Shown: positions 3 to 64,000, numbered from the stretch's first letter. The stretch: DNA of 64,000 bases from an uncultured Actinomycetota bacterium (GCA_963718995.1 CAVRAP010000008.1:1236-65235); one strand, 5' to 3'. The notes: generated from the letters alone by a model not told the origin. A program made the numbers and translations.

Positions 3-1316
3 CCGGAGATCCACGTGCCCCCACCGCTTCCAGACCGCTTCAGCCTAGAAGTCCGGCTGGGCCGCGATCACGACGTTGAGGAATGGCTTGCCACGGATAC
101 GGCCCTTGACCGACCGGTACTCATCCGGGTGCTCGGCCCGGAAACCTCAATCGATCGAAGGCAGGCCTTCGTCGACGATACGCGCTCCGGGGCAGCCCCA
201 ACGCACGTGCACCTCGTCTCCGTCTACGCAGCCGGTCTGATCGAAGAAGGCGCCTATTCGGTCACCGAGTGGGCAGGTGGTGTCTCCATGGCCGACCGCC
301 TCGCCGCCGGAGAGACGATCCCCGCAGCAGAATTCCTCCCCAACGCCGCCGGGCTGGCCGACGGACTCGCGGCTTTCCATCAGGCCGGTGGGATTCACGG
401 GGCGATAAGTGCGCGAGCGATCTACTACTCCGGGTCACACCCGGCCAAACTCGGTTCGTTTGGCCGCCCTCACTCCGGAGCGTCCGTTGCCGAAGACACA
501 CGCGCCCTGGCAGAGACCCTCGAGACCTGCATAACCGGTCGCCCGGTTGGAACGGCGACACCTTCCCAGGTGGTCGATGGGATTCCGGCGACGGTCGACG
601 AGGCCCTGCAGGCTGCCCGCGTGGGGAACCTCGATGCCGCCGGTCTCGCTCAGGTACTCCACGCCACGACGCAGAATCCACCGACGAAGCCGCCCGAGCC
701 AAAGTGGTCGTGGCGGTGGTTGGCCCCGGCCACCCTCCTCTCCTTCCTAGCCGTCGGGATCGTGGCCATTGGCCTGGTCCTTCCCTCCGGGCCCGGCTCG
801 CCGATTCTGTTCCCGGATACGCCTGCTGCCAGCACAACCACCCTCACGCTGGCCACGACCTCGACCTCCGTCTCCGTCGTTGACGGCAGCCCGGCCCTGA
901 CCGTACGGGCCTTCTCCTACGACCCGGAAGGCGACGGTAGCGAGCACGACGAGAACGTTCCGCTGGTGATCGACGGTGATCCCGCCACCAGCTGGCGAAC
1001 CGAGCGGTACTTCGACCCCCTTCCCCGCCTCAAGAGGGGGGTCGGCATCGTGTTCGAACTGACCGGTCGACCAAACCAGTTCCTGGCGACCGGCGTCAGC
1101 AACGCAACCGCCTACACCCTGATGTGGGCCGCCGAGTTACCGGCCAACGGTATCGAAGGATGGGAACGTCTGGCCAGCGGCACCGTGTCGGGAGAGCGTC
1201 TGAGTGCACAGATCCCGGAGCGGGAGAACGGTTATTGGCTGCTCTGGTTCACCGATCTCCCCACCCAGGAGGACGGCTTCTACGCATCGGTTGCGGAAGT
1301 ACGCTTCCTTCCATGA
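3..1316 (+). CDS. MviN/MurJ-associated pseudokinase domain, TM segment and extracytoplasmic C-terminal domain; frame is open to the window edge, so the 5' end is probably outside
   Basis: Kinase-like fold but catalytic motifs are degenerate: no VAIK lysine (VLIRVL), HRD loop replaced by IHGAISARAIYY, DFG replaced by KLGSFGR. One TM helix (WSWRWLAPATLLSFLAVGIVAIGLV) then a ~170-aa domain. No stop upstream in frame. Synteny with mycobacterial mviN-sigM-antisigM-trxB-trxC-cwlM. Confidence 0.6.
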   Translation, partial: PEIHVPPPLPDRFSLEVRLGRDHDVEEWLATDTALDRPVLIRVLGPETSIDRRQAFVDDTRSGAAPTHVHLVSVYAAGLIEEGAYSVTEWAGGVSMADRLAAGETIPAAEFLPNAAGLADGLAAFHQAGGIHGAISARAIYYSGSHPAKLGSFGRPHSGASVAEDTRALAETLETCITGRPVGTATPSQVVDGIPATVDEALQAARVGNLDAAGLAQVLHATTQNPPTKPPEPKWSWRWLAPATLLSFLAVGIVAIGLVLPSGPGSPILFPDTPAASTTTLTLATTSTSVSVVDGSPALTVRAFSYDPEGDGSEHDENVPLVIDGDPATSWRTERYFDPLPRLKRGVGIVFELTGRPNQFLATGVSNATAYTLMWAAELPANGIEGWERLASGTVSGERLSAQIPERENGYWLLWFTDLPTQEDGFYASVAEVRFLP

Positions 1317-1894
1317 GTTTTCGGGCCGTCGAAGATGCAGAACTGGTTGCGGCGTTCCTCGCGGGCGATCAACGAGCTTTCGATTCGCTCATGCGGGCCC
1401 ACGAAGACCGGGTCTTTGCCATCTGCCTCCGCATCCTCACCCATCGGGACGCCGCCCTGGATGCTGTTCAAGAGACCTTCATCACCGTGTACCGGAAGGC
1501 TCAGCAGTTTTCGGGTGCTTCGGCTTTCAGCACCTGGTTGTACCGGATTGCGGTCAACACGTGTTACGACCAACTTCGTCGCAGCAAACGCCACCAGGCC
1601 CAGCCTCTCCCGGAAACCAGCGATCCGGCCGATGCTCGTTCCCAGGACCTCCTCGGATCGGTCGAACTACGACCCGACCTCGAACATGCCCTCGCGACGC
1701 TGGCCCCAGAGTTTCGCGTGGCCGTGGTGTTGAGCGACCTCGAAGGCCTCCCTCTCCAGGCGATAGCGGAAGCACTCGATGTGCCCATCGGAACGGTGAA
1801 GTCGCGGGTCTTTCGCGGCAGGCGACTTCTCGCTGAACATCTCAGGAACTTTTCGGGTCCCTCGGTTCATCAAAGAGGTGAACATGATGCATGA
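1313..1894 (+). CDS. ECF (sigma-70 family) RNA polymerase sigma factor, SigM-like by synteny
   Basis: Regions 2 and 4 recognisable (FITVYRKAQQF...STWLYRIAVN; LSDLEGLPLQAIAEALDVPIGTVKSRVFRGRRLL). ATG at 1313 overlaps the upstream stop (ATGA). Confidence 0.85.
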   Translation: MSFRAVEDAELVAAFLAGDQRAFDSLMRAHEDRVFAICLRILTHRDAALDAVQETFITVYRKAQQFSGASAFSTWLYRIAVNTCYDQLRRSKRHQAQPLPETSDPADARSQDLLGSVELRPDLEHALATLAPEFRVAVVLSDLEGLPLQAIAEALDVPIGTVKSRVFRGRRLLAEHLRNFSGPSVHQRGEHDA

Positions 1895-46520: not shown

Positions 46521-46613
<93 letters not shown>

Positions 46614-46682
46614 GGTGCATGCCGTTGGCCTTGCTGGGCCGAAATCGGGGATACGGGCCTTTGGAAGGCGGTTGCCCTCCTC

Positions 46683-46850
46683 TCACCTCAGCAGCGGGCG
46701 GCCGTGGCGTTCTTCTATCTCGAGGATCGTCCGGTCCGCGAGATCGCTGGTCTGCTCGGCTGTTCCGAAGCCACGGCGAAAGTCCATCTTCACAAAGGGC
46801 GGTTGGCGCTCGCCACTGCCCTCGACCACAACCTCGCGAAGGAGCGGTGA
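46683..46850 (+). pseudogene. remnant of an ECF sigma factor (region 4 only), immediately 3' of tRNA-Ser(GCT)
   Basis: Translates as SPQQRAAVAFFYLEDRPVREIAGLLGCSEATAKVHLHKGRLALATAL, a region-4.2 HTH; no region 2 anywhere upstream; the frame runs into the tRNA. Confidence 0.5.
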
Positions 46851-52640: not shown

Positions 52641-52715
52641 GCGCCCGTAGCTCAATTTGGATAGAGCGTCTGACTACGGATCAGGAGGTTGGGGGTTCGA
52701 GTCCCTCCGGGCGTG
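52641..52715 (+). tRNA. tRNA-Arg (anticodon ACG)
   Basis: GCGCCCGTAGCTCAATTTGGATAGAGCGTCTGACTACGGATCAGGAGGTTGGGGGTTCGAGTCCCTCCGGGCGTG; anticodon loop CTACGGA. Confidence 0.9.
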
Positions 52716-52912
52716 CGCCGTTCGCTGCGCTCACGAACCGAGTTCGGCTTCGCCGAACATCGCCTTGCGTGGGCTTTGCGTTGTCAATCTCCGATGGCGC
52801 TGCGGGGTTTCGGTCATCTCCCGCCGAGTTCCAGGCTGCCTGGCCGGCGACCCGGGCAGGTGGCTGGTCATCTCGCACAGGACGTACCCATCCCCGGTCC
52901 TACACTCCTGTG

Positions 52913-54160
52913 ATGCCCAATTCGTCCGCTGTTCCTGCGCGCTCCTTTGTGGGGTGGCGGATTCTTGCCTTGGCTGTTCTGACCGCCGCGTTGACCGGTC
53001 CGGGTCAGACCATCGGGGTCTCCGTCTTCGTTGACTCCTTCATCCAGGATCTCGACTTGCAGAGATCAGCGGTGGCCGCTGCCTATCTCATCGGAACACT
53101 GGCCGCTGCGCTTGCCTTGCCGACAGTGGGGCGCCGCATCGACTCGCTCGGCGTGCGCCGGGGCATGACGATCATTGGATCTGCCTTTGTATTGGCTCTC
53201 ATCCTGATGTCACGGGTGTCAGGGTTCGTAACCCTGACGGCCGGATTTGTGCTGATCCGCATGCTGGGTCAGGGTTCGTTGTCGTTGGTCTCGACCGTGG
53301 CGGTGACCCTGTGGTTCGAGAGGCACCGCGGTCTAGTACTCGGAGTCCTGGCCACCGGATCAGGCATGCTCATGACCTTGGTCCCGATCGGTTCGAACGC
53401 TCTCATCGACTCCATCGGTTGGCGATCCGCCTGGTTGGTGCTTGCCGGTGTCGTGGCGCTGACCGTGGTTCCCATCGGATGGTTCGGCATGATCGACAGG
53501 CCCTCCGACCGAGGCCTCGCTCCCTACGGCGTGAAATCGTCGGACTCGACCGAAAGGCGCAGCGTTCGCCGGTCGTTCACTCGGCCCGAAGCCGTGCGGA
53601 CTGCCCGATTCTGGATCCTCGTTGCGGGTTCTACGTCGGCTGGCATGCTCATCACCGCCCTGAACTTCCACCAGATCTCGCTGCTCGGGGACGCCGGCCT
53701 CACGACCGCCGAGGCGGCCGCTATGTTTCTCCCCCAGTTCGTCGGTACGGCCATGGCCGGGATCGCCTTCGGGTGGATCAGCGACAGGCTGACCGGTCGC
53801 ACGCTCATTCCGTTAGTCATGGCGGTTCTCGCGATCACCTTGCTCCTGGCGGGGACACTGACCGATGGCCCAATCGTCCTGGTCTATGCCCTCTTGCTCG
53901 GCGCCACGGGCGGAGCCTCCCGGAGTGTTGGGAGCACATTGATGCCCCGCTGGTTCGGCGTCGACCACATCGGGTCGATCACGGGATTGGCAACGCTGGT
54001 CTCGGTGGCCGGCACGGCGGTCGGCCCTGTCGCGTACTCGCTGGCCCGGGACGTGACCGGTACCTACACCACGGTTTCTCTGGTCATGGTTTCTGTGCCG
54101 CTGCTGGTCGCCTTGGCAGCCATCGCCGCCGGGCAAAGGATGACGGCCGGAGCCGGGTAG
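52913..54160 (+). CDS. MFS transporter (12 TM)
   Basis: Twelve predicted helices, MFS motif A-like GRRIDSLGVRRG; ATG at 52913; the longer track ORF overlaps the tRNA and is rejected. Confidence 0.8.
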   Translation: MPNSSAVPARSFVGWRILALAVLTAALTGPGQTIGVSVFVDSFIQDLDLQRSAVAAAYLIGTLAAALALPTVGRRIDSLGVRRGMTIIGSAFVLALILMSRVSGFVTLTAGFVLIRMLGQGSLSLVSTVAVTLWFERHRGLVLGVLATGSGMLMTLVPIGSNALIDSIGWRSAWLVLAGVVALTVVPIGWFGMIDRPSDRGLAPYGVKSSDSTERRSVRRSFTRPEAVRTARFWILVAGSTSAGMLITALNFHQISLLGDAGLTTAEAAAMFLPQFVGTAMAGIAFGWISDRLTGRTLIPLVMAVLAITLLLAGTLTDGPIVLVYALLLGATGGASRSVGSTLMPRWFGVDHIGSITGLATLVSVAGTAVGPVAYSLARDVTGTYTTVSLVMVSVPLLVALAAIAAGQRMTAGAG

Positions 54161-54327
54161 CGAGTCTGTTACCCATGCTGCACCAGTGGTTGGTGGAGCG
54201 GGTGGTCACGTGGGTGGCCCGCTGGTCAGGGGTCGACAGGCCGTTTGAGTGAGGAACTCGGTCGAAACGGAATCCCCCTCGCTGGTGTGCCCGCCGCAGC
54301 CGTCAAGGTCCGTGTACGGATGTTTCC

Positions 54328-55735
54328 TTAGGGTTGCCGGAAAGGGACGGAGTCGGCGATCGGCAAAGAGATCCGGACTGTTGCGCCCCCGCCGGGCGTG
54401 CCGGTGATGGCGACGTCACCCTGGTGCGATGAGACAACCTCGCGGACGATGGCCAGTCCGAGGCCGGCGCCTCCCTTGGTTCGGTCCCGGCCCCGATCCG
54501 GTCGTGCGAATCGGTCGAACACCAACTCGCGTTCGGATTCGGCTATCCCCGGTCCATGGTCGGCGACGGTGATGTGAGCGTGGGCATCGGTGCGATGCGC
54601 CTCCAGCTCAATCGGGGTAGACGCTCCGCCGTAGGCGACGGCGTTGGTGATGAGGTTTTCGATGGCCTGCCGCAACCAGACGGGATCGGCGTCGACCATG
54701 ATTGATCCGTCGGTGTCGACACGGATGTCGCAACCGGTGGAGATACGCATATCCTCGGCGATGTCCTTCACGAGGGCGCCGACATCCAGGCGCTCACGGC
54801 CGGAGCCGATCTCTCGATCGAGGCGGGCGAGCGCCAGCAGATCTTCAATCAACCGCCCGGCGCGATGGCTGGCTTCATTGATACGTTCCATCGCCCGATC
54901 GAGCTTCGGGCCCGGCTCCACCCCGCCTTCGGCGTAGAGCTCGGCGTATCCGGTGATGGCTGCAATCGGCGTCCGCAGCTCGTGGGAGGCATCGTCGGCA
55001 AAGCGGCGGAGGCGCTCGGCCTCGCGCAGGCGGTCCCGGTCGGCGCTCTCGATACGGGCGAGCATGTGGTCGAGTGCCGTCGCCAGTCTTCCGAGCTCGG
55101 TACTTGACTGGACCAGGTCGGCCCTTTTCGTGAGGTCACCCTCGGCGATGGCGCCGGCGGTGTCGATCATGTCGTCGACCGGTCGGAATCCTCTTCTGAG
55201 CAGCAACCACGCGACCGTGATTCCCGCCAGCGCCGCCATCAAGCTGACGGCCAGCGAGATCAAGACCGTTTGGCGGGCCGCCAAGTCCACTGAGTCCAGG
55301 GACCGGGCGAGCAGCTCATATCCATCGGGGCTCTCCCGGACCAAGGCGCGCACCGATCCCGAACCATCGATTGTCGCCCAGCGTGACGAAGGTTCCGGCG
55401 CTTCCACCCAGGTCTGCCTCGGTCAGATTGCTCACGTCCGGCAGGGGTTCAGGCTCGTCGGCGTACCCGGCGGGCTGTTCGAAGACGACCTCGCCATTCT
55501 GGTTGAAGCGAATCAGAGCGAAAGGTTGGAAGGGCTCGTCGCCGGGGGCGGGCACGGCCGGACTGGGACCGGGACCGGGTCGGGTGGAGAAGGCCAGCAG
55601 GTCTTCGTCCACCCGATCGATGAGAACCCGTCTGGTCGTCAGCGAAACGGCGGCGGCGATAGAGGCGCTGACAATGAGGATGATGAGCCCGACCACGATG
55701 GTCAGGCGACGCCGCAGCGTCCACGGCCGGCTCAT
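54328..55735 (-). CDS. two-component sensor histidine kinase (TM sensor, HAMP, HisKA, HATPase); one apparent frameshift between 55316 and 55407
   Basis: N-terminal TM plus sensor in ORF 55316..55756, remainder in ORF 54328..55407 (H-box DDASHELRTPIAAITGYAEL; N, G1, G2 boxes); ATGA overlap with the response regulator stop. Confidence 0.8.
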
Positions 55736-56424
55736 GGACCGGAGGAGCGCAGGCAATAGCCGAACCCGCGCACGGTGTGGATGAGCTTGGGACGGCCTTC
55801 GTCGACCTTCTTGCGGAGCTGTGACACCGCGGTCTCGATCACCGAGTCGCTGTACTCGTACCCCCAGACGGCTTCCAGGATCTGCGCCCGGGACAGGACT
55901 TGTTCGGCGTTCGCCAGGAGGTAGCGGAGCAAACGGTATTCGACCGGCGAAAGGCTGATTTCGTCGTCTCCCCGCGACACGCGATGCTGCGCATCGTTCA
56001 GGACCAGATCGGCACAGATCAGCTCGATCGTTGGCCGCCGGATTCCGCCGCTACGCCGCAGGAGGGCCTCCACCCGCAACCGCAGTTCCTCCAGCCTGAA
56101 CGGCTTCGTGAGGTAGTCATCGCCGCCGGCCTCAAACCCGGCTCGCAGGTCCTCGATGTTGGATCGGGCGGTGAGGAACAGCACCGGCAGGTCCGGGTCG
56201 GTGCTGCGCAAGCTCCTGGCCACCTGAAAGCCGTCGGGTTCTGGCATGTTGACGTCCAGAATCACCAGGTCCGGCCGCTGAGTTCGCACGGTGTTGAGGG
56301 CTGCGAGGCCGTCGGTCGCTACCACGATGTCGTACCCGGCGAAGCTCAGCGCGTCGCTGACCATGTCGAGCAGCATCTGCTCGTCGTCCACAACGAGGAT
56401 CTGTGCCTTGGCAGCATCGGTCAT
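55732..56424 (-). CDS. OmpR/PhoB-family response regulator
   Basis: Receiver domain (ILVVDDE, phospho-acceptor D in LVILDVNMP, K in YLTKPF) plus winged-helix trans_reg_C. Confidence 0.85.
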   Translation of the reverse strand: MTDAAKAQILVVDDEQMLLDMVSDALSFAGYDIVVATDGLAALNTVRTQRPDLVILDVNMPEPDGFQVARSLRSTDPDLPVLFLTARSNIEDLRAGFEAGGDDYLTKPFRLEELRLRVEALLRRSGGIRRPTIELICADLVLNDAQHRVSRGDDEISLSPVEYRLLRYLLANAEQVLSRAQILEAVWGYEYSDSVIETAVSQLRKKVDEGRPKLIHTVRGFGYCLRSSGP

Positions 56425-56499
56425 CGCCACAACTCTAGGGTCGCCGGCTGCGTCCCCTTCATCGTTCGGTAGCGATCGCGATCGGCCAAACATCCCGGC

Positions 56500-57945
56500 C
56501 TACCTCTCGACCACGGTCTCGAGGAACGCCATCCGATCAGCGACCCATTGACGTTTCGCCGCTGCGGCTCTTTCGAGCTCGGTATCGGTCACGAACTGCC
56601 GGTCGGCATTGCTTGTAACCAGTAGCCCCGAGTACTCGTCGATGAGATCGGCGACGCCATCACCCGCAAACAGGATCTCGTAGAGCTCGGCGTAGCGCTG
56701 CTCGTAGGCAGCCAGGAACGAGTCGGTGGCCAGGAACCGATCGACCAGGGGGTTGTTGTAGTCGAAGGTCACGTCACCACCACCGACTCCGGGCTCATTG
56801 GCGATCCCGTCGAGGGGTGGGCCACCTCCTCCCGGCCCTGCCGGCCTCTCGCCGCCCGCACCATCTGCACCGCCGGCGCCGGATCCGGTGAGGTTGCTCC
56901 AATCTGGCAGCAACACGGTGCTGGGTTCGGTCGAGGCCATCCAGAAGCCGCCGAAGCTCTCGTTGAGGTCCCAGGCCAACACCGTGGACCGGTCATCACC
57001 GGCGTCGTACCACAGGTAGTAGTTGTTGCCGTTCCCGGGCATCGAATCGACGCTGACCAGCAGGTTGTTGACGGCGACGTAGTTCACGAACGATTCGATG
57101 TCGAGCCAGTCCTCCAGCTCGGCCTCGAACTCCTCGTCGGTGGAGGTGTCGACGAACTCGAGGAAGTCGATCAACGGCTCCAGATCCGCCTCATTCGTGG
57201 CGGTCTCCTGGGTGAAGGCGCCTTCATAGGCGGTCGGGTCGTGGCCGAGATAGGTGAACGAGTCCCCCGATTGGGCCTTGTAGAGCACTCCGTCATCGTC
57301 GAAGAGCCGTTCGACGTAGCCGTTGTCGAGGAGTTCGACCACCACCCGCAGGGTCTCGGCTTCACCGTTGATGGAGAGCCCGGTGTAGCTCGTCCCGGGG
57401 AACGGCAGTCCGGCGATCTCGAGGACCTCGGCGGTCACCATCTCCTCGAGAATCAGTTCATCTCCCCGGGGTCCCTCGGTGCGGAGGGCCAGTTCCGAGA
57501 ACCCCTGATAGGTGACGCCCGAGGTGTACTCGTCCAGCTTCACCAGAAACGGAATGTCGTCGGGGTCGGCACCGCCCTGCAGCGCCGTGCGGAGCGTCGA
57601 GTTTCCCTTGATGCGCACTCCGACGTCTTCGATGGTGACGCCGTCGATGGTGATGTCGGCGAGGAAATACTCCTTCTCACCGGTCTGTGTGTAGATGGTG
57701 ATGGCGGCCTCTAGATCGGACTGATCGAAGTCGAGCGCGATCGTGTGCACCACGGAGTCGTCGAATAGGTCAACAACATTGGTGTAGTCGACGCCAACGC
57801 TGGTGGATGACCCCGCCTCGTTGTCGCCTCCTGTACCTACATAGGCAATGATGCGCGTCTGGCCGCCCACCAGTGCCAGGGTCACCGCCAGCGCCACCAT
57901 GCCCAGCGGGATCTTCCAATGTCTGCGCCACCTTGTGCTCATCAT
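56500..57945 (-). CDS. CotH-family protein (atypical secreted kinase fold) with signal peptide and Gly-rich low-complexity insert
   Basis: Signal peptide MMSTRWRRHWKIPLGMVALAVTLALVGG; CotH motifs NNYYLWYD and WDLNESFGG. Confidence 0.75.
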   Translation of the reverse strand: MMSTRWRRHWKIPLGMVALAVTLALVGGQTRIIAYVGTGGDNEAGSSTSVGVDYTNVVDLFDDSVVHTIALDFDQSDLEAAITIYTQTGEKEYFLADITIDGVTIEDVGVRIKGNSTLRTALQGGADPDDIPFLVKLDEYTSGVTYQGFSELALRTEGPRGDELILEEMVTAEVLEIAGLPFPGTSYTGLSINGEAETLRVVVELLDNGYVERLFDDDGVLYKAQSGDSFTYLGHDPTAYEGAFTQETATNEADLEPLIDFLEFVDTSTDEEFEAELEDWLDIESFVNYVAVNNLLVSVDSMPGNGNNYYLWYDAGDDRSTVLAWDLNESFGGFWMASTEPSTVLLPDWSNLTGSGAGGADGAGGERPAGPGGGGPPLDGIANEPGVGGGDVTFDYNNPLVDRFLATDSFLAAYEQRYAELYEILFAGDGVADLIDEYSGLLVTSNADRQFVTDTELERAAAAKRQWVADRMAFLETVVER

Positions 57946-57951
57946 GTTCTC

Positions 57952-58635
57952 CTACAGATCAGAGCTGCCGTATCCCGTGAGCAGCGTCACCTTCTGGTTC
58001 TCGTTGAGGCGCTTGATCTCAGCCAGGAAGGCTTGCCGGTTGGTCGATGGTTTCAGGGCGATGGCGTACACCACCTCGGTCAACATCCCGCCGCGGACCG
58101 AATCGACGCTCACCAATTCGGCCCGTTCGGTGTTCCTGGTCAGGAGGTCGTCGAGCACCGTCTCGAAGGGGATGTCATTGGTGACCTGCACCTTCAGCAT
58201 CTGGGAGACGCTGGTGCGGTCATACCAGTTGAACCTGCTCATCAGCATCACAACCATCGAGATGACGGCGGTGGCGATGATGGCCAGCAGGTAGAAGCGG
58301 GTGCCGGCGGCCATGCCGATGGCCATGGCAAAGAACACGAATCCGACATCGCGGGTCTCTTTGATCGCATTGCGGAACCGGATGATGGAAAGCGCACCGA
58401 CCAGCGAAAAGGCCCGGGCGATGTTCGAGCCAACTACCAGCATGATGACACTGACGATCATTCCCATCAGTACCAGGGTCTGCACGTAGCTCTTCGTGTA
58501 CGACGCTCCCTCGTGGGTGCGCATGTACACCCACCCGACGATGGCCGTGAGCACAAAGCTCAGGACCATGCTGATCACTACATCCGCCACCGTGAAGGTG
58601 CTGGTCAGGTCCTCGAACAGAAATAGCTCATCCAT
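57952..58635 (-). CDS. DUF4956-family integral membrane protein
   Basis: Three or four TM helices and the conserved LVGALSIIRFRNAIKETRDVGFVFFAMAIGMAAG segment. Confidence 0.75.
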   Translation of the reverse strand: MDELFLFEDLTSTFTVADVVISMVLSFVLTAIVGWVYMRTHEGASYTKSYVQTLVLMGMIVSVIMLVVGSNIARAFSLVGALSIIRFRNAIKETRDVGFVFFAMAIGMAAGTRFYLLAIIATAVISMVVMLMSRFNWYDRTSVSQMLKVQVTNDIPFETVLDDLLTRNTERAELVSVDSVRGGMLTEVVYAIALKPSTNRQAFLAEIKRLNENQKVTLLTGYGSSDL

Positions 58636-59433
58636 GGGTTCTTACCTTTCGTAGGTTCAGTCGTTGGTCGTCAAAGAAGAAAATCGAGCGGGGGGTCAGT
58701 TCGGCCGCTTCGAGGCTCTGGCAATACTTCGAGATCCGGATCAGCTCGCAGTCGTGGCGGGCAACCAGCTCGGTCAGCCAGAAGGGGATGCGTTCATTGA
58801 CCTTGACCTCCATGACCTCCCACGAAGGGTTGATGGCCGGCAGGCCCGGCCCGGGAGAGGTCAGGTCGAGGTCCCGGGAGCGGTACCGGATGTCTTTGTC
58901 GAAGGTGACCCGGAGGCCTGGATCGGGCTCCCGGCCCACGTACGCCTCTCTCTCGTAGAGCGTGATCACCGCCCGCCGTAAGTCGTAGTACAGGGTCATG
59001 GAGGCAATCTCGTCATAGGTGGCCGTGTCCCTCGGGTCATGTGGGGGGACGATCCCGGAACCACACAGCGCCAGCGCCTCGGCGAGTGGCGCGACGATGC
59101 GCCGTTTCTGGGTCACCCGATTGACCCGCTGCTTGATCTCGGCGAACACCATGGTCGATGGCTCCGGAGCCGGGTCGTAGGAGCGGATTCTGAGCTTCCG
59201 ACGGAACTTGATCCCGTCGAGTTTTTCCCAATAGAACCGGTGGTCTTCGGTGTCGTAGTACAACGATGCCAACGGATACGAACCGGTCGGTCCTGCGTGC
59301 GGGTCGAGGTCGACGTAGTGCACCAAGTCATCCCGAAAGGCGTTCGCCTGGTCCGACGTCAACAGATATTTGAGCTCGAACCGGTTGAACGACCGCACCG
59401 CGCTCGTCGGGTTGGGGTTGATGCTCAGGTGCG
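58590..59433. repeat. copy A of a >=844-bp near-identical direct repeat (partner at 63157..64000)
   Basis: Covers the first 15 codons of the DUF4956 gene plus most of the VTC gene; one nucleotide difference seen (58682 A versus 63249 G, synonymous). Confidence 0.85.
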
Positions 59434-59476
59434 GTTGGGGTTTCTGGCGCGTCGTCATGCCACCACTGTCCACCAC
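58628..59476 (-). CDS. VTC-domain (CYTH-like triphosphate tunnel, polyphosphate-polymerase-domain) protein
   Basis: Hallmark FNRFELKYLL start, YYDT, FAEIKQR, EVKVNE motifs of PF09359; start could be ATG 59476, ATG 59458 or GTG 59431. Confidence 0.8.
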   Translation of the reverse strand: MVDSGGMTTRQKPQPHLSINPNPTSAVRSFNRFELKYLLTSDQANAFRDDLVHYVDLDPHAGPTGSYPLASLYYDTEDHRFYWEKLDGIKFRRKLRIRSYDPAPEPSTMVFAEIKQRVNRVTQKRRIVAPLAEALALCGSGIVPPHDPRDTATYDEIASMTLYYDLRRAVITLYEREAYVGREPDPGLRVTFDKDIRYRSRDLDLTSPGPGLPAINPSWEVMEVKVNERIPFWLTELVARHDCELIRISKYCQSLEAAELTPRSIFFFDDQRLNLRKVRTHG

Positions 59477-59611
59477 GCAACTGGTGGCCCCCCAAGCGCA
59501 AGCTCAGCGTTCCCTCACGATCGTGAATCGAGCGCGGTATCCAAAAGGAACGCCACGGTCGGTTCAACCTGGGAAGCGCCCCCGCCGGGAGCCAAGTTGG
59601 GAGCCATTCGC

Positions 59612-59700
59612 AGTGGACCTGTGTGGACGGCTGTGGACGCCGGTGAAATCGAAAGCCTTTCATTTCGGGCTGTGTGGACGTCTGTGGACGTCTGTGGACG
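59612..59700. promoter_or_regulatory. two clusters of three 10-bp-phased direct repeats (TGTGGACG; CGTCCACAGA on the operon strand) upstream of the VTC operon
   Basis: Units at 59612 (variant AGTGGACC), 59622, 59632 and at 59673, 59683, 59693; phasing typical of OmpR/PhoB-family tandem half-sites; also resembles the DnaA box (CGTCCACA versus TTGTCCACA). Confidence 0.5.
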
Positions 59701-59715
59701 CTGCTTGGAGATCTG

Positions 59716-59755
59716 CGGATCAGGAGGTTGGGGGTTCGAGTCCCTCCGGGCGTGC
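59716..59755 (+). repeat. 40-bp exact copy of the tRNA-Arg 3' half (anticodon loop to acceptor stem); attR-like
   Basis: cggatcaggaggttgggggttcgagtccctccgggcgtgc identical to 52677-52716. Confidence 0.8.
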
Positions 59756-60059
59756 TAGTGAAACCCCTGCGAGAGCGGGGGTTTCGTCGCGAGCAGGGGT
59801 TGGCTCCCGGAAGCAGGTGGACCTTGGGAGCCTTTCTCCATCTGAGGCGGCTTTCGCTTCGAGGTTGCGGCTTGGTGAAGCGTGATATATGCGGATGCGT
59901 GAAGACGCTATTCCCGCCCGGGATCGGCCGTTTCGCCGAGCGACCGGACAATCTTGCGAGCCTCCTCGCCCCGAAGGGATTGAGACACGATCTTGGGCGT
60001 AATGTTGTTCGTGTTCAGGTTTTGGCCGCATTCGCTCCCTGTATAAGTGGAGGATCAGA

Positions 60060-60557
60060 GTGGTCGAGGCGCTCAACCGGGAGATCAACGTTTCGAGAGG
60101 GTCGGAACTCGATGGTTTCGACCGGCTGTATAGAGAACAGGCATCTCGCTTGTGGCGGGCGCTTACCGCGTACACGGGCAGTCGCGACGTGGCACAGGAT
60201 GCGGTCGCTGAGGCTTTCGCGCAAGCGATTGCGCGCGGCGGAGAGATTCATTCACCGCTGCAGTGGGTGTGGAAGTCCGCATATCGAATCGCAGCTGGTG
60301 AGCTGAAGCGACGTGGAGCATTCACCGAGTTGGTGACCGATCATCCGACGACGGCAGACGAACCAGCGTCGGAGGTTCGAGCGGCGTTGATGAAGCTGTC
60401 GCCGATGCAGCGCTCGGCGGTGGTGTTGCACTACTACGCGGGTTATCCGGCTGCCGAGATCGCCCGAATCACCGGCTCGACCGCCGCTGCAGTGTGGGTG
60501 CACTTGAGTCGGGGACGGCGCCACATGGCCCAGTTGCTGGAGGTAGACGATGACTGA
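60060..60557 (+). CDS. ECF sigma factor
   Basis: Region 2 (DVAQDAVAEAFAQA) and region 4 (LSPMQRSAVVLHYYAGYPAAEIARITGSTAAAVWVHLSRGRRHM); GTG start with SD GGAGGA. Confidence 0.8.
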   Translation: MVEALNREINVSRGSELDGFDRLYREQASRLWRALTAYTGSRDVAQDAVAEAFAQAIARGGEIHSPLQWVWKSAYRIAAGELKRRGAFTELVTDHPTTADEPASEVRAALMKLSPMQRSAVVLHYYAGYPAAEIARITGSTAAAVWVHLSRGRRHMAQLLEVDDD

Positions 60558-62061
60558 CTTGCGGGAACGCCTCAGCGAATTGGATCGGCTCGATGCACCT
60601 GATATGCGGGTGAGCATCGATCGGCGTGTCGGCGAACTCCAATCTGCCACCCGTGTGTCACTTGTCCATTCAGCAAGTCCGGTGTGGCGGGGTCCGCTGA
60701 TCGCATTGGCGACGGCTGTTGCGGCCATCCTGGTGGTTGCCGCGTCGATGCTGGTGTTGCGGACGGAACAGCCGGACATGGTCGACGAACCGGCTCCCAC
60801 CTCTCCGACAACGATCGAGGCGCCCGAGACGAGCTCTCCGTCGGCGAATCAGGCTCCTCCGAGATCCCCGGCTTATTACGGTGCAGCCCTCATCGAGTGG
60901 ATGTATGGCGTATGTGACGTTGCGGTTGCGCCGGATGGTCTGGTGTACGCGGCGGCCCCGGCGGGGATCGGCTCAATGGACGCAGCGGGCGAGTGGACCC
61001 TGATCGACATTGCCGGACTCCCGCAGGGCAGACCTCTGGACAACGGGTGGCCGGCTCCGAGGATCGGAAACGTCGCCATCGGCCCCGACGGCGCTCTGTG
61101 GGCGGGCGGCACCTCCTGGTCCACCGTCGACGATGAGGAGTTCGGGGGAGTTATCGCCGAGCCGTTGGGCTCCATGGCGCCGGCGGCCCGGTTCAAGACG
61201 TGGGCGGCACGCTACGACTGCGGTCGGGAACCATGCTCGTGGACGGTGTTCACTACGGACGTGGCTCCCGGAACGGACTTCGACATCGGCGATATGGCGG
61301 TGTCGAGCGACGGAACCGTCTACCTCACCACCGGTGACAACCTGTTGCTCATTCTCGACGGGACCGAATGGGAATCCCACACCGTCCCGGGGCTCCCGAC
61401 CGGCTTCGGTAGCGGCGTGTCGCCGTGGTCGAGTTCGCTGGCGATCGATGCCGATGGTGTCGTGTGGGTGGGCACCAACGCCAATGACGATCCGGGGTGG
61501 GGGATCCCCAGCAGCGACTTTCGCGAAGGGCGCGGTCTGTTCGCTTTCGACGGTACCGATTTCACTCGATACACCACCGAGGACGGGCTTCCCAGCGATC
61601 GCGCCTTCCAGGTGTCGGTCGATGCAGATGGAACTATCTGGGTCGCCACCGACGGCCCTGATCACGTGAATCGGATCGTCGGGGAATATGGGTTTGTATG
61701 GTACGAGGGCCCTAACACGAGCCTGCCGCCGGAAGCAGCAGCCGGGATCGCCGGCTTCGACGGCACCACCTGGACCCCTTACACGGCCGCCGACGGACTG
61801 CTGTCGAACAACGCCGTACTGGCTGCAAGCCCTGACGGGACCATGTGGGCTCTTCACTCTGCGACAACCCCCTACGGGTACTCCCACTTCGACGGCACCG
61901 CATGGACCGCCTATCCGGCCGAACTCCCGGCTGGTGCGTTCCGGACCTTCCGGGCAGAAGTTGCTCCCGACGGGACCCTGTGGACGATCTCAGATCAGGG
62001 TGTGGGTAGCTTCGACGGCATCACCCCAACGATCCACACATCACTGTTTCCCCGCCCGTGA
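60550..62061 (+). CDS. anti-sigma-like membrane protein fused to a two-component-regulator-propeller (Reg_prop) beta-propeller domain
   Basis: 8-nt overlap with the ECF sigma; cytoplasmic N-terminus, one TM (LIALATAVAAILVVAASMLVL), Pro/Ser linker, then ~8 repeats of the DG(T/A)(L/V)W...FDG..WT.Y propeller type. Confidence 0.7.
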   Translation: MTDLRERLSELDRLDAPDMRVSIDRRVGELQSATRVSLVHSASPVWRGPLIALATAVAAILVVAASMLVLRTEQPDMVDEPAPTSPTTIEAPETSSPSANQAPPRSPAYYGAALIEWMYGVCDVAVAPDGLVYAAAPAGIGSMDAAGEWTLIDIAGLPQGRPLDNGWPAPRIGNVAIGPDGALWAGGTSWSTVDDEEFGGVIAEPLGSMAPAARFKTWAARYDCGREPCSWTVFTTDVAPGTDFDIGDMAVSSDGTVYLTTGDNLLLILDGTEWESHTVPGLPTGFGSGVSPWSSSLAIDADGVVWVGTNANDDPGWGIPSSDFREGRGLFAFDGTDFTRYTTEDGLPSDRAFQVSVDADGTIWVATDGPDHVNRIVGEYGFVWYEGPNTSLPPEAAAGIAGFDGTTWTPYTAADGLLSNNAVLAASPDGTMWALHSATTPYGYSHFDGTAWTAYPAELPAGAFRTFRAEVAPDGTLWTISDQGVGSFDGITPTIHTSLFPRP

Positions 62062-62086
62062 CAACAAACAGCTAGGAGGTGTGAAC

Positions 62087-62668
62087 GTGCCGGGCCAACT
62101 CCGCACCCCGACCAGGAGATGGATGTCATGGAGGCACTTTGTGAGACATCGTGCGGTTCTTCTACTGCCTGTTCTTACCCTGATTCTTGGAGCGTGTGGC
62201 GCCAGTTCCATCACAGGAGATCGGACCTTCGTCTACGGGACTGGCAACTGCGACTGCAACTTCGCTTCGGCGACCGCCGAGGGTGATACACAGATCCTCA
62301 ATGGAACGTGTGTCTGCATAACTCACCTATCCGACCCGAGAGTCAATGGGTACGAAGAAATCCCTATGACCCTGACCATGTTTCCGGACCAGACCCCGGA
62401 AGTGCACTGGTTCGAGTACAACGACGCAACCCTCACCAGCGAAGAAGCCACATGGGGCAAAGGCGAGGGCTTCGGCAGTGAGTTCTTCGACAAGAGTGGC
62501 GGCTTGCTGACTAGTGGATACGCCAGATACCTCGGTGAAGGTACGTTTGACGGTCTCGTGTACGAGTACTTCTACTCGCAGGCTCCCGCCTTCGCTTCGG
62601 AGGACGACCCCCACGAGGGCTATCGGATCTCTGGATGGATCATGCAGGTCCCGGACGAAAAAAACTGA
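62087..62668 (+). CDS. secreted lipoprotein, Cys-rich N-terminal region (function unknown)
   Basis: Signal peptide with lipobox LILGAC; CDC/C.C motifs; start GTG 62087 or ATG 62123. Confidence 0.55.
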   Translation: MPGQLRTPTRRWMSWRHFVRHRAVLLLPVLTLILGACGASSITGDRTFVYGTGNCDCNFASATAEGDTQILNGTCVCITHLSDPRVNGYEEIPMTLTMFPDQTPEVHWFEYNDATLTSEEATWGKGEGFGSEFFDKSGGLLTSGYARYLGEGTFDGLVYEYFYSQAPAFASEDDPHEGYRISGWIMQVPDEKN

Positions 62669-62804
62669 ACCGCCCCATATCACGGGAATCTCGCACCAAA
62701 AAGAGCATGTCGCCGAGTGTCCCCGAGCGGCACGTCGGCGTGTGCTCGTCTGGGGCCTCATCCGCTCCCGGACATTCGTCACAGCATTACCGAGATGTGG
62801 AATC

Positions 62805-63134
62805 ATGCGCAACGTGATGCAACCTACGCTTCGCGCTACCACGGAGTCCGGGGCCGTCTGGGACGATCCTTCGGAGGATCTGCTCTTCGAACTGCTCTCC
62901 GATGTGGAACAAGGAAGAGAGTTGTTTCTCGTTATTCACCGACTCGGCGCTACCGACATGTACATCCAGGTCTTATTGCAAGACGAATGGACTTACCTCG
63001 TCGAGCACCGTGATGGGGGACCGTCATCGCATTTCGCTGCGACGTCCCACGACAAGCGGACCGTGCACGAGGTCCTCACGACATGGGCCTACCAGCTTCC
63101 CGGTGGACGAGCCTGCTCGGTTGGACGTCCGTGA
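62805..63134 (+). CDS. hypothetical small cytoplasmic protein (109 aa)
   Basis: ORF from an internal ATG; no recognisable domain. Confidence 0.45.
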   Translation: MRNVMQPTLRATTESGAVWDDPSEDLLFELLSDVEQGRELFLVIHRLGATDMYIQVLLQDEWTYLVEHRDGGPSSHFAATSHDKRTVHEVLTTWAYQLPGGRACSVGRP

Positions 63135-63156
63135 GTTTCTAGCTAGAGCCGTCACG

Positions 63157-63204
63157 CCGTGAAGGTGCTGGTCAGGTCCTCGAACAGAAATAGCTCATCC
63201 ATGG
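63157..63204 (-). pseudogene. 15-codon remnant of a DUF4956 gene N-terminus (MDELFLFEDLTSTFT-A-stop) at the boundary of the duplicated segment
   Basis: Identical to codons 1-15 of the gene at 58635, then diverges into a stop. Confidence 0.5.
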
Positions 63205-64000
63205 GTTCTTACCTTTCGTAGGTTCAGTCGTTGGTCGTCAAAGAAGAAGATCGAGCGGGGGGTCAGTTCGGCCGCTTCGAGGCTCTGGCAATACTTCGAG
63301 ATCCGGATCAGCTCGCAGTCGTGGCGGGCAACCAGCTCGGTCAGCCAGAAGGGGATGCGTTCATTGACCTTGACCTCCATGACCTCCCACGAAGGGTTGA
63401 TGGCCGGCAGGCCCGGCCCGGGAGAGGTCAGGTCGAGGTCCCGGGAGCGGTACCGGATGTCTTTGTCGAAGGTGACCCGGAGGCCTGGATCGGGCTCCCG
63501 GCCCACGTACGCCTCTCTCTCGTAGAGCGTGATCACCGCCCGCCGTAAGTCGTAGTACAGGGTCATGGAGGCAATCTCGTCATAGGTGGCCGTGTCCCTC
63601 GGGTCATGTGGGGGGACGATCCCGGAACCACACAGCGCCAGCGCCTCGGCGAGTGGCGCGACGATGCGCCGTTTCTGGGTCACCCGATTGACCCGCTGCT
63701 TGATCTCGGCGAACACCATGGTCGATGGCTCCGGAGCCGGGTCGTAGGAGCGGATTCTGAGCTTCCGACGGAACTTGATCCCGTCGAGTTTTTCCCAATA
63801 GAACCGGTGGTCTTCGGTGTCGTAGTACAACGATGCCAACGGATACGAACCGGTCGGTCCTGCGTGCGGGTCGAGGTCGACGTAGTGCACCAAGTCATCC
63901 CGAAAGGCGTTCGCCTGGTCCGACGTCAACAGATATTTGAGCTCGAACCGGTTGAACGACCGCACCGCGCTCGTCGGGTTGGGGTTGATGCTCAGGTGCG
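63195..64000 (-). CDS. second copy of the VTC-domain protein gene (5' end may run off the window)
   Basis: Protein identical to copy A over 256 aa; GTG at 63965 corresponds to internal Val of copy A; the upstream ATG of copy A would lie at ~64010. Confidence 0.75.
   Translation of the reverse strand, partial: HLSINPNPTSAVRSFNRFELKYLLTSDQANAFRDDLVHYVDLDPHAGPTGSYPLASLYYDTEDHRFYWEKLDGIKFRRKLRIRSYDPAPEPSTMVFAEIKQRVNRVTQKRRIVAPLAEALALCGSGIVPPHDPRDTATYDEIASMTLYYDLRRAVITLYEREAYVGREPDPGLRVTFDKDIRYRSRDLDLTSPGPGLPAINPSWEVMEVKVNERIPFWLTELVARHDCELIRISKYCQSLEAAELTPRSIFFFDDQRLNLRKVRTHG

What the first reader, a model, noticed from the sequence alone, without database searches (positions are those of the whole stretch)
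59756..63156. Second accessory module between the att repeat and VTC copy B: ECF sigma, anti-sigma-beta-propeller fusion and lipoprotein
Immediately after the att repeat lie an ECF sigma gene, an overlapping gene whose product has an anti-sigma-like cytoplasmic N-terminus and one TM helix fused to an extracytoplasmic Reg_prop-type beta-propeller of about 8 blades, a Cys-rich lipoprotein and a small orphan ORF. A propeller sensor fused directly to an anti-sigma anchor is an uncommon way to couple an extracellular ligand-binding domain to sigma release. Its position between two copies of the VTC module suggests it belongs to a second integrated element.
Basis: partly seen in the sequence, partly recalled or inferred. 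Interest (0 to 1): 0.5.

Follow-up and report, generated by a model that had tools for sequence, protein, structure and literature searches.

The report
ECF sigma with propeller anti-sigma cassette
This is a three-gene signalling cassette from an uncultured Acidimicrobiia-type actinobacterium: an alternative sigma factor, a membrane protein that probably holds it in check and carries an outward-facing seven-bladed propeller sensor, and an exported barrel lipoprotein; it is an unusual but not surprising variant of a very common bacterial signalling scheme.

Summary
After a 43-nt copy of the tRNA-Arg 3' end (59713-59755) lie an ECF sigma gene (60060-60557), an 8-nt-overlapping 503-aa gene (60550-62061), a lipoprotein gene (62087-62668) and a small gene (62805-63134).

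Corrections:
- The propeller has 7 blades, not 8.
- The small ORF is not an orphan. It belongs to a conserved ~112-aa actinobacterial family and carries a 1-nt frameshift.
- Only two of the lipoprotein's cysteines are family-invariant.

The 503-aa protein is modelled as two short cytoplasmic helices, one TM helix, a Pro/Thr linker and a Reg_prop-type propeller. The propeller is closest to Bacteroides hybrid two-component sensor domains.

The N-terminus matches no known anti-sigma domain, so the anti-sigma role rests on context. All 10 distinct propeller-family relatives examined that have this N-terminus plus TM helix have an overlapping upstream ECF sigma. All four that have a lipoprotein or other leader lack one.

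The sigma/sensor/lipoprotein trio recurs as a sharply bounded cassette in unrelated contexts: between IS transposases, and between secY and adk. It is therefore accessory and relocatable. No integrase or second att site supports a "second integrated element". VTC copy B fits a 4567-bp tandem duplication equally well.

Verdict: new variant of a known kind, modest interest.

The parts
59713..59755 (+). 43-nt direct repeat of the 3' part of tRNA-Arg(ACG) (52674-52716), 42/43 identical. It is the left boundary of the finding, and is an att-type remnant or decayed tRNA.
   Evidence: Weak Rfam tRNA match at 59688-59754, 22.7 bits, E=0.19.
59760..59787 (+). Strong GC-rich hairpin (GAAACCCCUGCG-AGAG-CGGGGGUUUC) directly after the repeat. 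Probably a terminator-like element of the tRNA flank.
   Evidence: (MFE and centroid fold), sequence
59991..60059 (+). Conserved upstream block (putative promoter, leader and RBS). Homology to L003 begins here. The core GTGTTCAGGTTTTGG...TTCGCTCCCT.TAT..GTGGAGG (from ~60009) is identical in 4 orthologous loci whose further flanks are unrelated.
   Evidence: No second copy in the window. No sigma-70 or GGAAC-type consensus.
60060..60557 (+). ECF sigma factor, 165 aa, with sigma2 and sigma4 regions.
60550..62061 (+). Putative anti-sigma and sensor, 503 aa. Layout: cytoplasmic two-helix segment aa 1-32 (60550-60645); TM helix aa 48-69 (60691-60756); Pro/Thr/Ser linker aa 70-108; 7-bladed Reg_prop-type propeller aa 121-500 (60910-62049) with a conserved Cys224/Cys229 pair.
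   Evidence: Context rule.
62087..62668 (+). Lipoprotein, 193 aa, lipobox Cys37. The mature domain is a predicted 8-stranded beta-barrel of a small uncharacterised family. It lies 25 nt after the sensor gene's stop codon, so it is probably co-transcribed.
62805..63142 (+). Small conserved gene of the ~112-aa actinobacterial family of unknown function. A 1-nt deletion near 63103 makes the listed ORF stop at 63134. The corrected frame ends at TAG 63140-63142. It is a separate unit, not part of the sigma cassette.
63157..64000 (-). VTC copy B. It duplicates 58590-59433 (the VTC gene plus the first 46 nt of the DUF4956 gene), 843/844 identical, and is cut by the window end. It is the right boundary of the finding.

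Best explanation
The region encodes a self-contained extracytoplasmic-function (ECF) signalling cassette.

Proposed mechanism:
1. The sigma factor and the 503-aa protein are made from overlapping, translationally coupled genes.
2. The 503-aa protein is a single-pass, N-in membrane protein.
3. Its short cytoplasmic N-terminus (two helices within 32 residues) sequesters the sigma at the membrane.
4. Its extracytoplasmic 7-bladed Reg_prop-type propeller acts as the sensor. The cue is probably a cell-envelope or environmental glycan-like ligand or a partner protein.
5. The stimulus inactivates the anchor, by regulated proteolysis or conformational change.
6. The freed sigma transcribes its own operon from the conserved upstream block.
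7. That raises production of the downstream exported beta-barrel lipoprotein, which is the likely output or an accessory ligand-binding partner.

Shown here: gene order and overlaps, domain architecture, fold, the family-wide link between the N-terminal segment and an upstream sigma, and cassette conservation.

Inferred: sigma binding by the N-terminus, the nature of the signal, the release mechanism, autoregulation, and the role of the lipoprotein.

In this genome the cassette sits just outside a 7-kb segment bounded by tRNA-Arg and its 43-nt repeat, and is followed by a recent partial duplicate of the VTC gene.
For: Sigma identity.

Coupling: 8-nt overlap with good Shine-Dalgarno sequences.

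Architecture and fold:
- AF2 model, pLDDT 81.8.
- Foldseek top hits are the periplasmic Reg_prop sensor domains of BT4663, BT4673 and BT3049, plus the 7-bladed Vgb lyase.
- Pfam Reg_prop E=3e-10.

Extracytoplasmic location of the propeller:
- Arg-rich N-terminal side and an acidic Pro/Thr linker after the TM helix.
- An invariant or near-invariant Cys224/Cys229 pair.
- Paralogues that carry lipoprotein signal peptides instead.

Context rule. Ten distinct Reg_prop-family proteins with the N-terminal helical segment plus TM helix all have an ECF sigma gene overlapping or abutting their start: window, L003, L002, L083 (second pair), L084, L085, L086, L090, L092/93/94, L096-98. In L083 a further sigma is paired with a Kelch-like 439-aa protein that has a similar N-terminus. 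Four family members with a lipoprotein or other leader (L005, L087, L088, L089) have none.

Shared N-terminal pattern: helix, Pro turn, helix.

Cassette conservation:
- The trio recurs with the same barrel lipoprotein in L003, L092-94 and L090.
- The upstream block is conserved in 4 orthologous loci.

Literature: Casas-Pastor et al. 2021 (PMC7826278) state that most ECF groups have a +1, usually single-TM, putative anti-sigma that matches no known anti-sigma Pfam domain.
Against: - The N-terminal segment has no sequence or profile similarity to any known or solved anti-sigma domain.
- At about 47 cytoplasmic residues it is much shorter than class I (four-helix) or class III (RsbN, 1-91) domains.
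- No sigma/anti-sigma contact prediction or experiment was possible.
- No recognisable ECF-type promoter consensus was found.
- The ligand is unknown.
- The +2 gene varies between relatives (barrel, GDSL-like, alpha/beta-hydrolase-like, DM13). The lipoprotein is therefore not an obligatory part of the mechanism.
Confidence: 0.65

Rival explanations
1. The 503-aa protein is not an anti-sigma. It is a signal-anchored, exported propeller protein (enzyme or binding protein) that is merely co-transcribed with, or a target of, the ECF sigma. The sigma is controlled some other way, for example transcriptionally.
For: - No similarity to any anti-sigma domain.
- Close paralogues of the propeller work without any sigma, as lipoproteins.
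- Structural neighbours include enzymes such as Vgb lyase and SGL-like propellers.
- The closest sigma subfamily by NCBIfam is SigE-type. For ECF39, Casas-Pastor et al. say a two-component system directly regulates transcription.
Against: - A conserved cytoplasmic two-helix segment appears only in the sigma-linked members, and always together with start/stop overlap.
- A plain signal anchor would not need a conserved 30-residue helical cytoplasmic module.
Confidence: 0.15
2. Context reading A. The finding's region together with VTC copy A forms one 4567-bp unit (58590-63156) that has been tandemly duplicated. Copy B is the start of the second unit. The ECF cassette is the original chromosomal neighbour of tRNA-Arg rather than cargo of a second integrated element.
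For: - Copy B starts 46 nt inside the DUF4956 gene, leaving a truncated stub, while copy A is contiguous with an intact operon. This is exactly what a head-to-tail duplication junction gives.
- 843/844 identity implies a recent event.
- The 43-nt repeat lies downstream of, and in the same orientation as, the intact tRNA. The integrated segment is therefore 52717-59712, and 59756 onward lies outside it.
- No integrase is present in 52717-64000.
Against: - The window ends 844 nt into copy B, so a second copy of the att repeat and cassette cannot be seen.
- The cassette is not syntenic in any relative.
Confidence: 0.4
3. Context reading B. The cassette is cargo of a second integrative element inserted in tandem at the tRNA-Arg att site, with its far end and integrase beyond the window.
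For: - It lies immediately after an att-type repeat.
- The trio and the small gene each have sharp homology boundaries and different neighbours in relatives.
- In L003 the cassette is flanked by rve transposase genes.
- GC content drops to 0.57 in 62001-63000.
Against: - No integrase, excisionase, transfer or replication gene and no third att copy lie within the window.
- The GC content of the sigma and sensor genes equals the genome average.
- VTC copy B is a truncated copy of the neighbouring operon, not an independent module.
Confidence: 0.15
4. The VTC duplication that bounds the finding on the right is an assembly artefact of a metagenome-assembled genome, for example a collapsed or mis-joined repeat or strain mixture.
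For: - Relatives come from metagenome bins.
- A 1-nt deletion in a G run in the adjacent small gene looks like a sequencing or assembly error.
- An independent short-read contig (L001) is 100% identical over 59733-62885 but stops before the junction.
Against: - The junction is clean and the two copies differ at one base.
- Nothing else in the region looks chimeric.
Confidence: 0.15

Closest known systems
Sigma-BldN / RsbN of Streptomyces venezuelae (class III anti-sigma domain; PDB 6DXO; PMC6101532)
   Same: - BldN is the closest solved sigma to this one.
- The anti-sigma is encoded next to the sigma.
- It is a single-pass membrane protein with a cytoplasmic N-terminus and a large extracytoplasmic C-terminal domain.
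[quoted passage not shown]
   Different: - RsbN has a 117-residue cytoplasmic region, with three helices in residues 1-91. Here there are about 47 residues with two predicted helices.
- There is no sequence similarity.
- RsbN's outer domain is not a propeller.
- RsbN homologues appear limited to Streptomyces (PMC6101532).
Class II anti-sigma domains (CnrY, NepR): the 'small two-helix clamp' described in PMC6101532
   Same: A minimal two-helix cytoplasmic sigma-binding element. This is the same size class as the predicted helices 2-13 and 16-32.
   Different: - No detectable sequence similarity.
- From my own knowledge: CnrY relies on a separate periplasmic sensor (CnrX), and NepR is soluble and works by partner switching.
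- Here the sensor domain is fused to the anchor.
- The structural match was not testable with these tools.
Periplasmic Reg_prop sensor domains of Bacteroides hybrid two-component and one-component systems (BT4663, BT4673, BT3049; PDB 4A2L/4A2M, 3OTT/3VA6, 3V9F)
   Same: - Best structural matches to the propeller.
- Same Pfam repeat, PF07494.
- Extracytoplasmic location, N-terminal membrane anchor, ligand-sensing role.
   Different: - Those sensors have two tandem propellers plus a Y_Y_Y domain, and signal through a fused kinase, receiver or AraC output.
- Here a single 7-bladed propeller is joined to a putative anti-sigma anchor.
- Sequence identity is only 10-16%.
Receptor-type anti-sigma factors such as B. 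subtilis RsiV/SigV (own knowledge, not tested here)
   Same: The concept that the extracytoplasmic domain of a single-pass anti-sigma is itself the ligand receptor.
   Different: An unrelated fold and an unrelated sigma group. No ligand is known here.
DUF3224 and allene-oxide-cyclase/dirigent-type 8-stranded beta-barrels (PDB 2Q03, 2OOJ and others), for the lipoprotein
   Different: - About 11% identity and no Pfam or NCBIfam hit.
- It is lipid-anchored and exported.
- It has its own conserved motifs (C55...C77, SDPRVSG, GFGSEF, GEGAYxGL, GWIEP).

Membership tests
ECF (group 4) sigma-70 family | Sigma4 (region 4.2, HTH) domain | tested here: met
   PF08281 E=5.2e-14, 52.1 bits against a cutoff of 25.7
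ECF (group 4) sigma-70 family | Sigma2 domain, with no regions 1.1 or 3, and a length of about 160-200 aa | tested here: met
   - 165 aa.
- PF04542 is weak (E=0.012, below cutoff).
- The TIGR02983 alignment spans residues 17-161, and TIGR02937 residues 20-159 at E=5e-10, 39.2 bits against a cutoff of 42.9.
- The protein aligns to BldN over residues 12-162.
SigE-family ECF subfamily (TIGR02983) | Score above the curated cutoff | tested here: not met
   81.6 bits against a cutoff of 141.55. It is the nearest subfamily, but this protein is not a member by NCBI's criterion.
Class I anti-sigma domain (zf-HC2/ZAS, RsdA, RskA, RseA-type) | A four-helix ASD of about 80-90 residues detectable by Pfam profiles, often with an HxxxCxxC motif | tested here: not met
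   - No PF13490, PF16751 or PF10099 hit at E<=0.1.
- No PDB hit.
- Only two helices before the TM helix, and no Cys or His motif.
Class II (CnrY/NepR) or class III (RsbN) anti-sigma domain | A two-helix clamp, or a three-helix element, docking on sigma2/sigma4 | not testable with these tools
   - There is no sequence similarity to solved members.
- The helix count (two) resembles class II.
Functional anti-sigma factor (operational definition of Casas-Pastor et al. 2021, PMC7826278) | Encoded at +1 of the ECF gene, with a transmembrane helix, conserved across the group | tested here: met
   - 8-nt overlap and one TM helix.
- Conserved pairing in 10 distinct relatives, against 0 of 4 family members lacking the N-terminal segment.
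Functional anti-sigma factor | Physical binding to, and inhibition of, the cognate sigma | not testable with these tools
   Needs AF-Multimer or an experiment.
Reg_prop (PF07494) two-component-regulator propeller | Repeats scoring above the Pfam gathering threshold, and a beta-propeller fold | tested here: met
   - 39.4 bits against 20.4.
- The AF2 model has 7 four-stranded blades.
- Top Foldseek hits are BT4663, BT4673 and BT3049 at E down to 2.7e-11.
Bacteroides-type hybrid two-component sensor (HTCS) | Tandem propellers plus a Y_Y_Y domain plus a cytoplasmic HisKA/HATPase/receiver/AraC output | tested here: not met
   There is only one propeller, no PF07495, and no kinase, receiver or AraC domains.
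Bacterial lipoprotein | Signal peptide followed by a lipobox [LVI][ASTG][GA]C | tested here: met
   The sequence ...LLLPVLTLILGAC37 is visible directly. Homologues have LAGC or LAAC at the same place.
tRNA-targeting integrative element (genomic island, AICE or prophage) | A direct repeat of the tRNA 3' end, plus a tyrosine or serine integrase inside the bounded segment | tested here: not met
   - The repeat is present.
- No integrase-like ORF lies in 52717-59712 or 59756-63156. The genes there are MFS, HK/RR, CotH, DUF4956, VTC, sigma, sensor, lipoprotein and the small gene.
- A distal integrase beyond 64000 cannot be excluded.

The most novel reading that the evidence does not exclude
The conserved ~32-residue helix-Pro-helix N-terminus is a previously undescribed minimal anti-sigma domain. 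In Acidimicrobiia it has been combined repeatedly with Reg_prop- or Kelch-type extracytoplasmic propellers. The sigma + propeller-sensor + barrel-lipoprotein trio would then be a portable, self-contained sensory cassette that relocates as a unit: next to a tRNA att remnant here, between IS elements in L003, and between secY and adk in L092. The barrel lipoprotein would act as a ligand-presenting co-receptor for the propeller.
Probability: 0.2. Interest if true: 0.5.

Novelty: new variant of a known kind. Interest (0 to 1): 0.3.

Why it matters
ECF sigma/anti-sigma pairs are the third major bacterial signalling scheme, but for most groups the sensed signal and the sigma-binding element are unknown.

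This cassette joins a well-studied ligand-binding fold, the Reg_prop propeller of gut Bacteroides glycan sensors, to a minimal, unclassified anti-sigma anchor in an uncultured actinobacterial class. If the binding and the ligand were established, it would add:
- a compact new anti-sigma module;
- an example of a direct receptor-type anti-sigma;
- a small, portable three-gene sensor of possible use as an orthogonal switch.

As it stands it is a plausible but unremarkable variant. It does not bear on the VTC/CotH module next to it.

Tried and rejected
Runs that failed or found nothing:
- The genome scan with the 39-sequence alignment failed for lack of a conserved stretch. It was repeated with 12 sequences.
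- The source 103-kb contig could not be read past the window. Only a 3.15-kb Logan contig came back.
- An exact search for the 63157 junction in metagenome contigs found nothing.
- The afdb50 fold library was unavailable.
- The ECF classification paper mentions no propeller, WD40 or Kelch anti-sigma, and its supplements are not held.

Ideas tested and rejected:
- A GGAAC/GAAC/GTAAC-N15-18-CGT promoter upstream of the sigma, lipoprotein or small gene: none.
- A sigma-70 promoter or intrinsic terminator: none useful.
- Pfam, NCBIfam and PADLOC identity for the lipoprotein and small gene: none.
- A defence-system reading: no PADLOC hit.
- A barrel domain fused to propellers as a Rosetta-stone link: the hits were only to signal-peptide or linker regions.
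- The L002 +2 gene as a lipoprotein homologue: unrelated.
- An integron-cassette reading of the mosaic: no attC-like repeats or integrase were seen, and this was not pursued.


Full report
**What is there**

The window comes from a high-GC (about 62%) organism. The closest protein and DNA relatives are all from uncultured Acidimicrobiia/Actinomycetota metagenome bins.

Gene order around the finding:
- metH(-)
- tRNA-Arg(ACG) 52641-52716(+)
- MFS transporter(+)
- histidine kinase and response regulator(-)
- CotH(-), DUF4956(-), VTC(-, 58628-59476)
- a 43-nt copy of the tRNA-Arg 3' part at 59713-59755, 42/43 identical
- a strong hairpin at 59760-59787
- the four + strand genes of the finding
- from 63157 to the window end, a second copy of 58590-59433 with 1 mismatch in 844. 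This covers the VTC gene plus the first 46 nt of the DUF4956 gene.

**The sigma factor**

The gene at 60060-60557 has a GTG start with GGAGGA 6 nt upstream and encodes 165 aa.
- Sigma4: clear match, PF08281 E=5e-14.
- Sigma2: weak match, PF04542 E=0.012.
- NCBIfam: aligns end to end with ECF models. The best is the SigE-family TIGR02983, E=5.5e-23, but below its curated cutoff.
- Closest solved structure: sigma-BldN of Streptomyces venezuelae, 6DXO, E=4.7e-8 over residues 12-162.

It is a divergent but complete ECF sigma.

**The 503-aa protein**

Its ATG at 60550 overlaps the sigma stop codon by 8 nt and has GGAGG 6 nt upstream. An AlphaFold2 model built on 75 homologues reached mean pLDDT 81.8. 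It shows:
- helices at 2-13 and 16-32;
- a low-confidence stretch;
- a hydrophobic helix at 48-69;
- a disordered Pro/Thr/Ser-rich linker at 70-108;
- a confidently modelled all-beta domain at 121-500.

The strands group into seven four-stranded sheets. The sequence carries seven 'DGxxW/Y' repeats at residues 128, 179, 253, 302, 360, 429 and 474. The propeller therefore has 7 blades, not about 8.

Evidence for the propeller assignment:
- Pfam Reg_prop scores 39.4 bits against a gathering score of 20.4.
- Foldseek against the PDB puts the periplasmic sensor domains of the Bacteroides hybrid two-component or one-component systems BT4663, BT4673 and BT3049 first (E down to 2.7e-11). The 7-bladed virginiamycin B lyase and PorZ follow.

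Evidence for N-in, propeller-out topology:
- an Arg-rich N-terminal side;
- an acidic linker after the TM helix;
- a conserved Cys224/Cys229 pair;
- paralogues that replace the whole N-terminus with a lipoprotein signal peptide.

**Is it an anti-sigma?**

By similarity, no.
- No Pfam anti-sigma family (zf-HC2, RsdA, RskA) is hit at E<=0.1.
- Neither the N-terminal 80 residues nor a 15-sequence profile of such N-termini finds any solved anti-sigma.
- The cytoplasmic part is only about 47 residues with two helices. That is too small for a class I four-helix domain or for the class III RsbN domain (residues 1-91, three helices). In size it resembles the class II 'two-helix clamp' of CnrY/NepR (classification as given in PMC6101532).

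By context, the case is good. The propeller domain (residues ~105-503) defines a family confined to Acidimicrobiia-type bins, and that family occurs with three kinds of N-terminus.

| N-terminus | Loci examined | Sigma gene at the start |
|---|---|---|
| Short helical cytoplasmic segment + TM helix | window; L003 (88% identity); L002/L004 (52%); L083, second pair; L084 (sigma ORF 1100-1606, not called by the depositor); L085; L086; L090 (835 aa, Reg_prop-like plus Kelch-like propellers); L092/L093/L094 (65%); L096-L098 | present in all 10 distinct proteins, overlapping or abutting |
| Lipoprotein signal peptide or other leader | L005, L087, L088, L089 | none in all 4 |

In L083 a further sigma is paired with a Kelch-like 439-aa protein that has a similar N-terminus.

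The N-termini are diverged but share a helix, Pro-turn, helix pattern.

Among the roughly 145 more distant Reg_prop relatives from other phyla fetched with flanks, none has a sigma gene immediately upstream.

This arrangement meets the operational definition used in the ECF re-classification: a +1 gene with a TM helix, conserved across the group. That paper notes such proteins usually match no known anti-sigma Pfam domain (PMC7826278).

I therefore take the anti-sigma role as the best explanation (about 0.65). Sigma binding remains inferred.

**The lipoprotein**

The gene runs from GTG 62087 (AGGAGG 7 nt upstream), 25 nt after the sensor gene's stop codon, to 62668. The lipobox is L-G-A-C37. 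It has no Pfam, NCBIfam or PADLOC match.

The family is small. An exhaustive HMMER scan of 1.84 billion representatives gave 65 proteins at E<=0.001.

Conserved features: C55, C77, SDPRVSG, GFGSEF, GEGAYxGL and GWIEP. The extra CxC cysteines (57, 75) are specific to this subfamily, so 'Cys-rich' overstates it.

A member of this family follows the sensor gene in the window, L003, L092-94 and L090. In L090 the lipoprotein is 65% identical although the sensor is only 29% identical.

In other sigma/sensor loci the +2 gene is a different exported lipoprotein:
- GDSL-like in L002;
- alpha/beta-hydrolase-like in L097;
- DM13 in L083.

The +2 position thus looks like a variable exported output. The barrel is the commonest partner.

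**Promoter**

No sigma-70 consensus is present either.

Instead, the ~55-65 nt upstream of the start codon are almost invariant in four orthologous loci whose further flanks are unrelated. This block contains GTGTTCAGGTTTTGG...TTCGCTCCCT.TAT..GTGGAGG. It occurs only once in the window.

More distant sigma/sensor pairs (L084, L086, L090) carry a classical ECF-like GAATC-N16-CGTCTA upstream.

The conserved block is the best candidate for the autoregulated promoter plus leader. Its -35 and -10 elements cannot be assigned.

**The small gene**

The ORF at 62805-63134 has 44 homologous clusters of about 110 aa, for example in Kribbella.

The alignment shows that the window copy departs from the family after '...YQLPG'. 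Reading one base later restores 'WTSLLGWTSVSF*', ending at TAG 63140-63142. There is thus a 1-nt deletion in a G run. It is plausibly an assembly error.

A relative (L091, 86% nt identity) shares only 62797-63143 with the window. This gene is therefore a separate unit and not part of the sigma cassette.

**Context and mobility**

L003 (92% nt identity) shares only window 59991-62661, that is, from the upstream block to the end of the lipoprotein gene. There the cassette is flanked by rve-type transposase genes.

Other contexts:
- In L092 the trio lies between secY and adk.
- In L002 the sigma/sensor pair, with an unrelated +2 lipoprotein, lies between a peptidase M28 gene and an SRPBCC gene.

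The cassette is thus accessory and relocates as a unit.

That is not evidence for a second integrase-type element here:
- No integrase or further att copy is present.
- The orientation of the repeat places 59756 onward outside the tRNA-bounded 7-kb segment.
- Copy B begins 46 nt inside the DUF4956 gene. This is what a head-to-tail duplication of a 4567-bp unit (58590-63156) would give.

The window ends too early to decide between a tandem duplication, a second element and a mis-assembly. An independent short-read contig (L001) is identical over 59733-62885 but stops before the junction.

**Comparison with known systems and verdict**

It works like a canonical membrane-anchored ECF sigma/anti-sigma pair.
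- Nearest solved relative of the sigma: BldN, whose partner RsbN was likewise unrecognisable by sequence.
- The sensor fold is that of Bacteroides Reg_prop glycan sensors, but with one propeller and a different output.
- The literature held here describes WD40-like repeats only as C-terminal extensions of ECF57 sigmas (PMC8999054). I found no paper describing a Reg_prop anti-sigma.

I rate it a new variant of a known kind, with modest interest (0.3). The combination is real, conserved and uncommon outside this class. However, it is the kind of domain shuffling expected in ECF signalling, and the key functional step is untested.

Noticed in passing
window 52717-59712: The 7-kb segment bounded by tRNA-Arg and its 43-nt repeat carries an MFS transporter, a histidine kinase/response regulator pair and a CotH-DUF4956-VTC operon, but no integrase. 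It looks like an integrase-less island remnant.
   Followed up: partly
window 59631-59700: The motif CTGTGGACG occurs three times (59631, 59682, 59692) just left of the att repeat, and only once elsewhere in 64 kb. Looser TGTGGAC copies lie nearby. These could be recombinase arm-type sites or the decayed 5' half of a tRNA, given the weak Rfam tRNA hit at 59688-59754 (E=0.19).
   Followed up: partly
window 63100-63142: A 1-nt deletion in a G run frameshifts the last 12 codons of the small conserved gene. The corrected reading matches the family consensus (PGW.SLLGW.SV.F). It is probably a sequencing or assembly error.
   Followed up: yes
L092 1-3892: In a 65%-identical relative, the sigma/sensor/lipoprotein trio is inserted between secY and adk. 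These two genes are normally adjacent in the conserved ribosomal-protein (spc) operon (adjacency from my own knowledge).
   Followed up: partly
L003 6390-7612 and 11022-12062: Two different rve-family transposase genes flank the 92%-identical copy of the cassette. Homology to the window starts at L003 7482, close to the probable end of the upstream IS.
   Followed up: partly
L083 951-4801: Two sigma/propeller-sensor pairs lie in tandem: first a Kelch-like 439-aa sensor, then a Reg_prop-like 455-aa sensor. This suggests local duplication and divergence of such pairs.
   Followed up: no
L090 2447-4954: An 835-aa relative combines the same kind of N-terminus and TM helix with a Reg_prop-like propeller followed by a second, Kelch-like propeller. 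A 65%-identical barrel lipoprotein and an ankyrin-repeat protein follow it.
   Followed up: partly
window 980-1891 and 46560-46847: Two further ORFs in the window match the ECF-sigma profile built from the sensor-linked sigmas (E=7e-18 and 2e-12).
   Followed up: no
P0204 (977 aa) and P0232 (1902 aa), hits: The barrel-lipoprotein query matched 8 and 10 separate stretches in two long proteins. The domain may therefore also exist as tandem arrays.
   Followed up: no
window 62001-63000: GC content falls to 0.57, against about 0.62 elsewhere, over the lipoprotein gene, the 135-nt spacer and the small gene.
   Followed up: no
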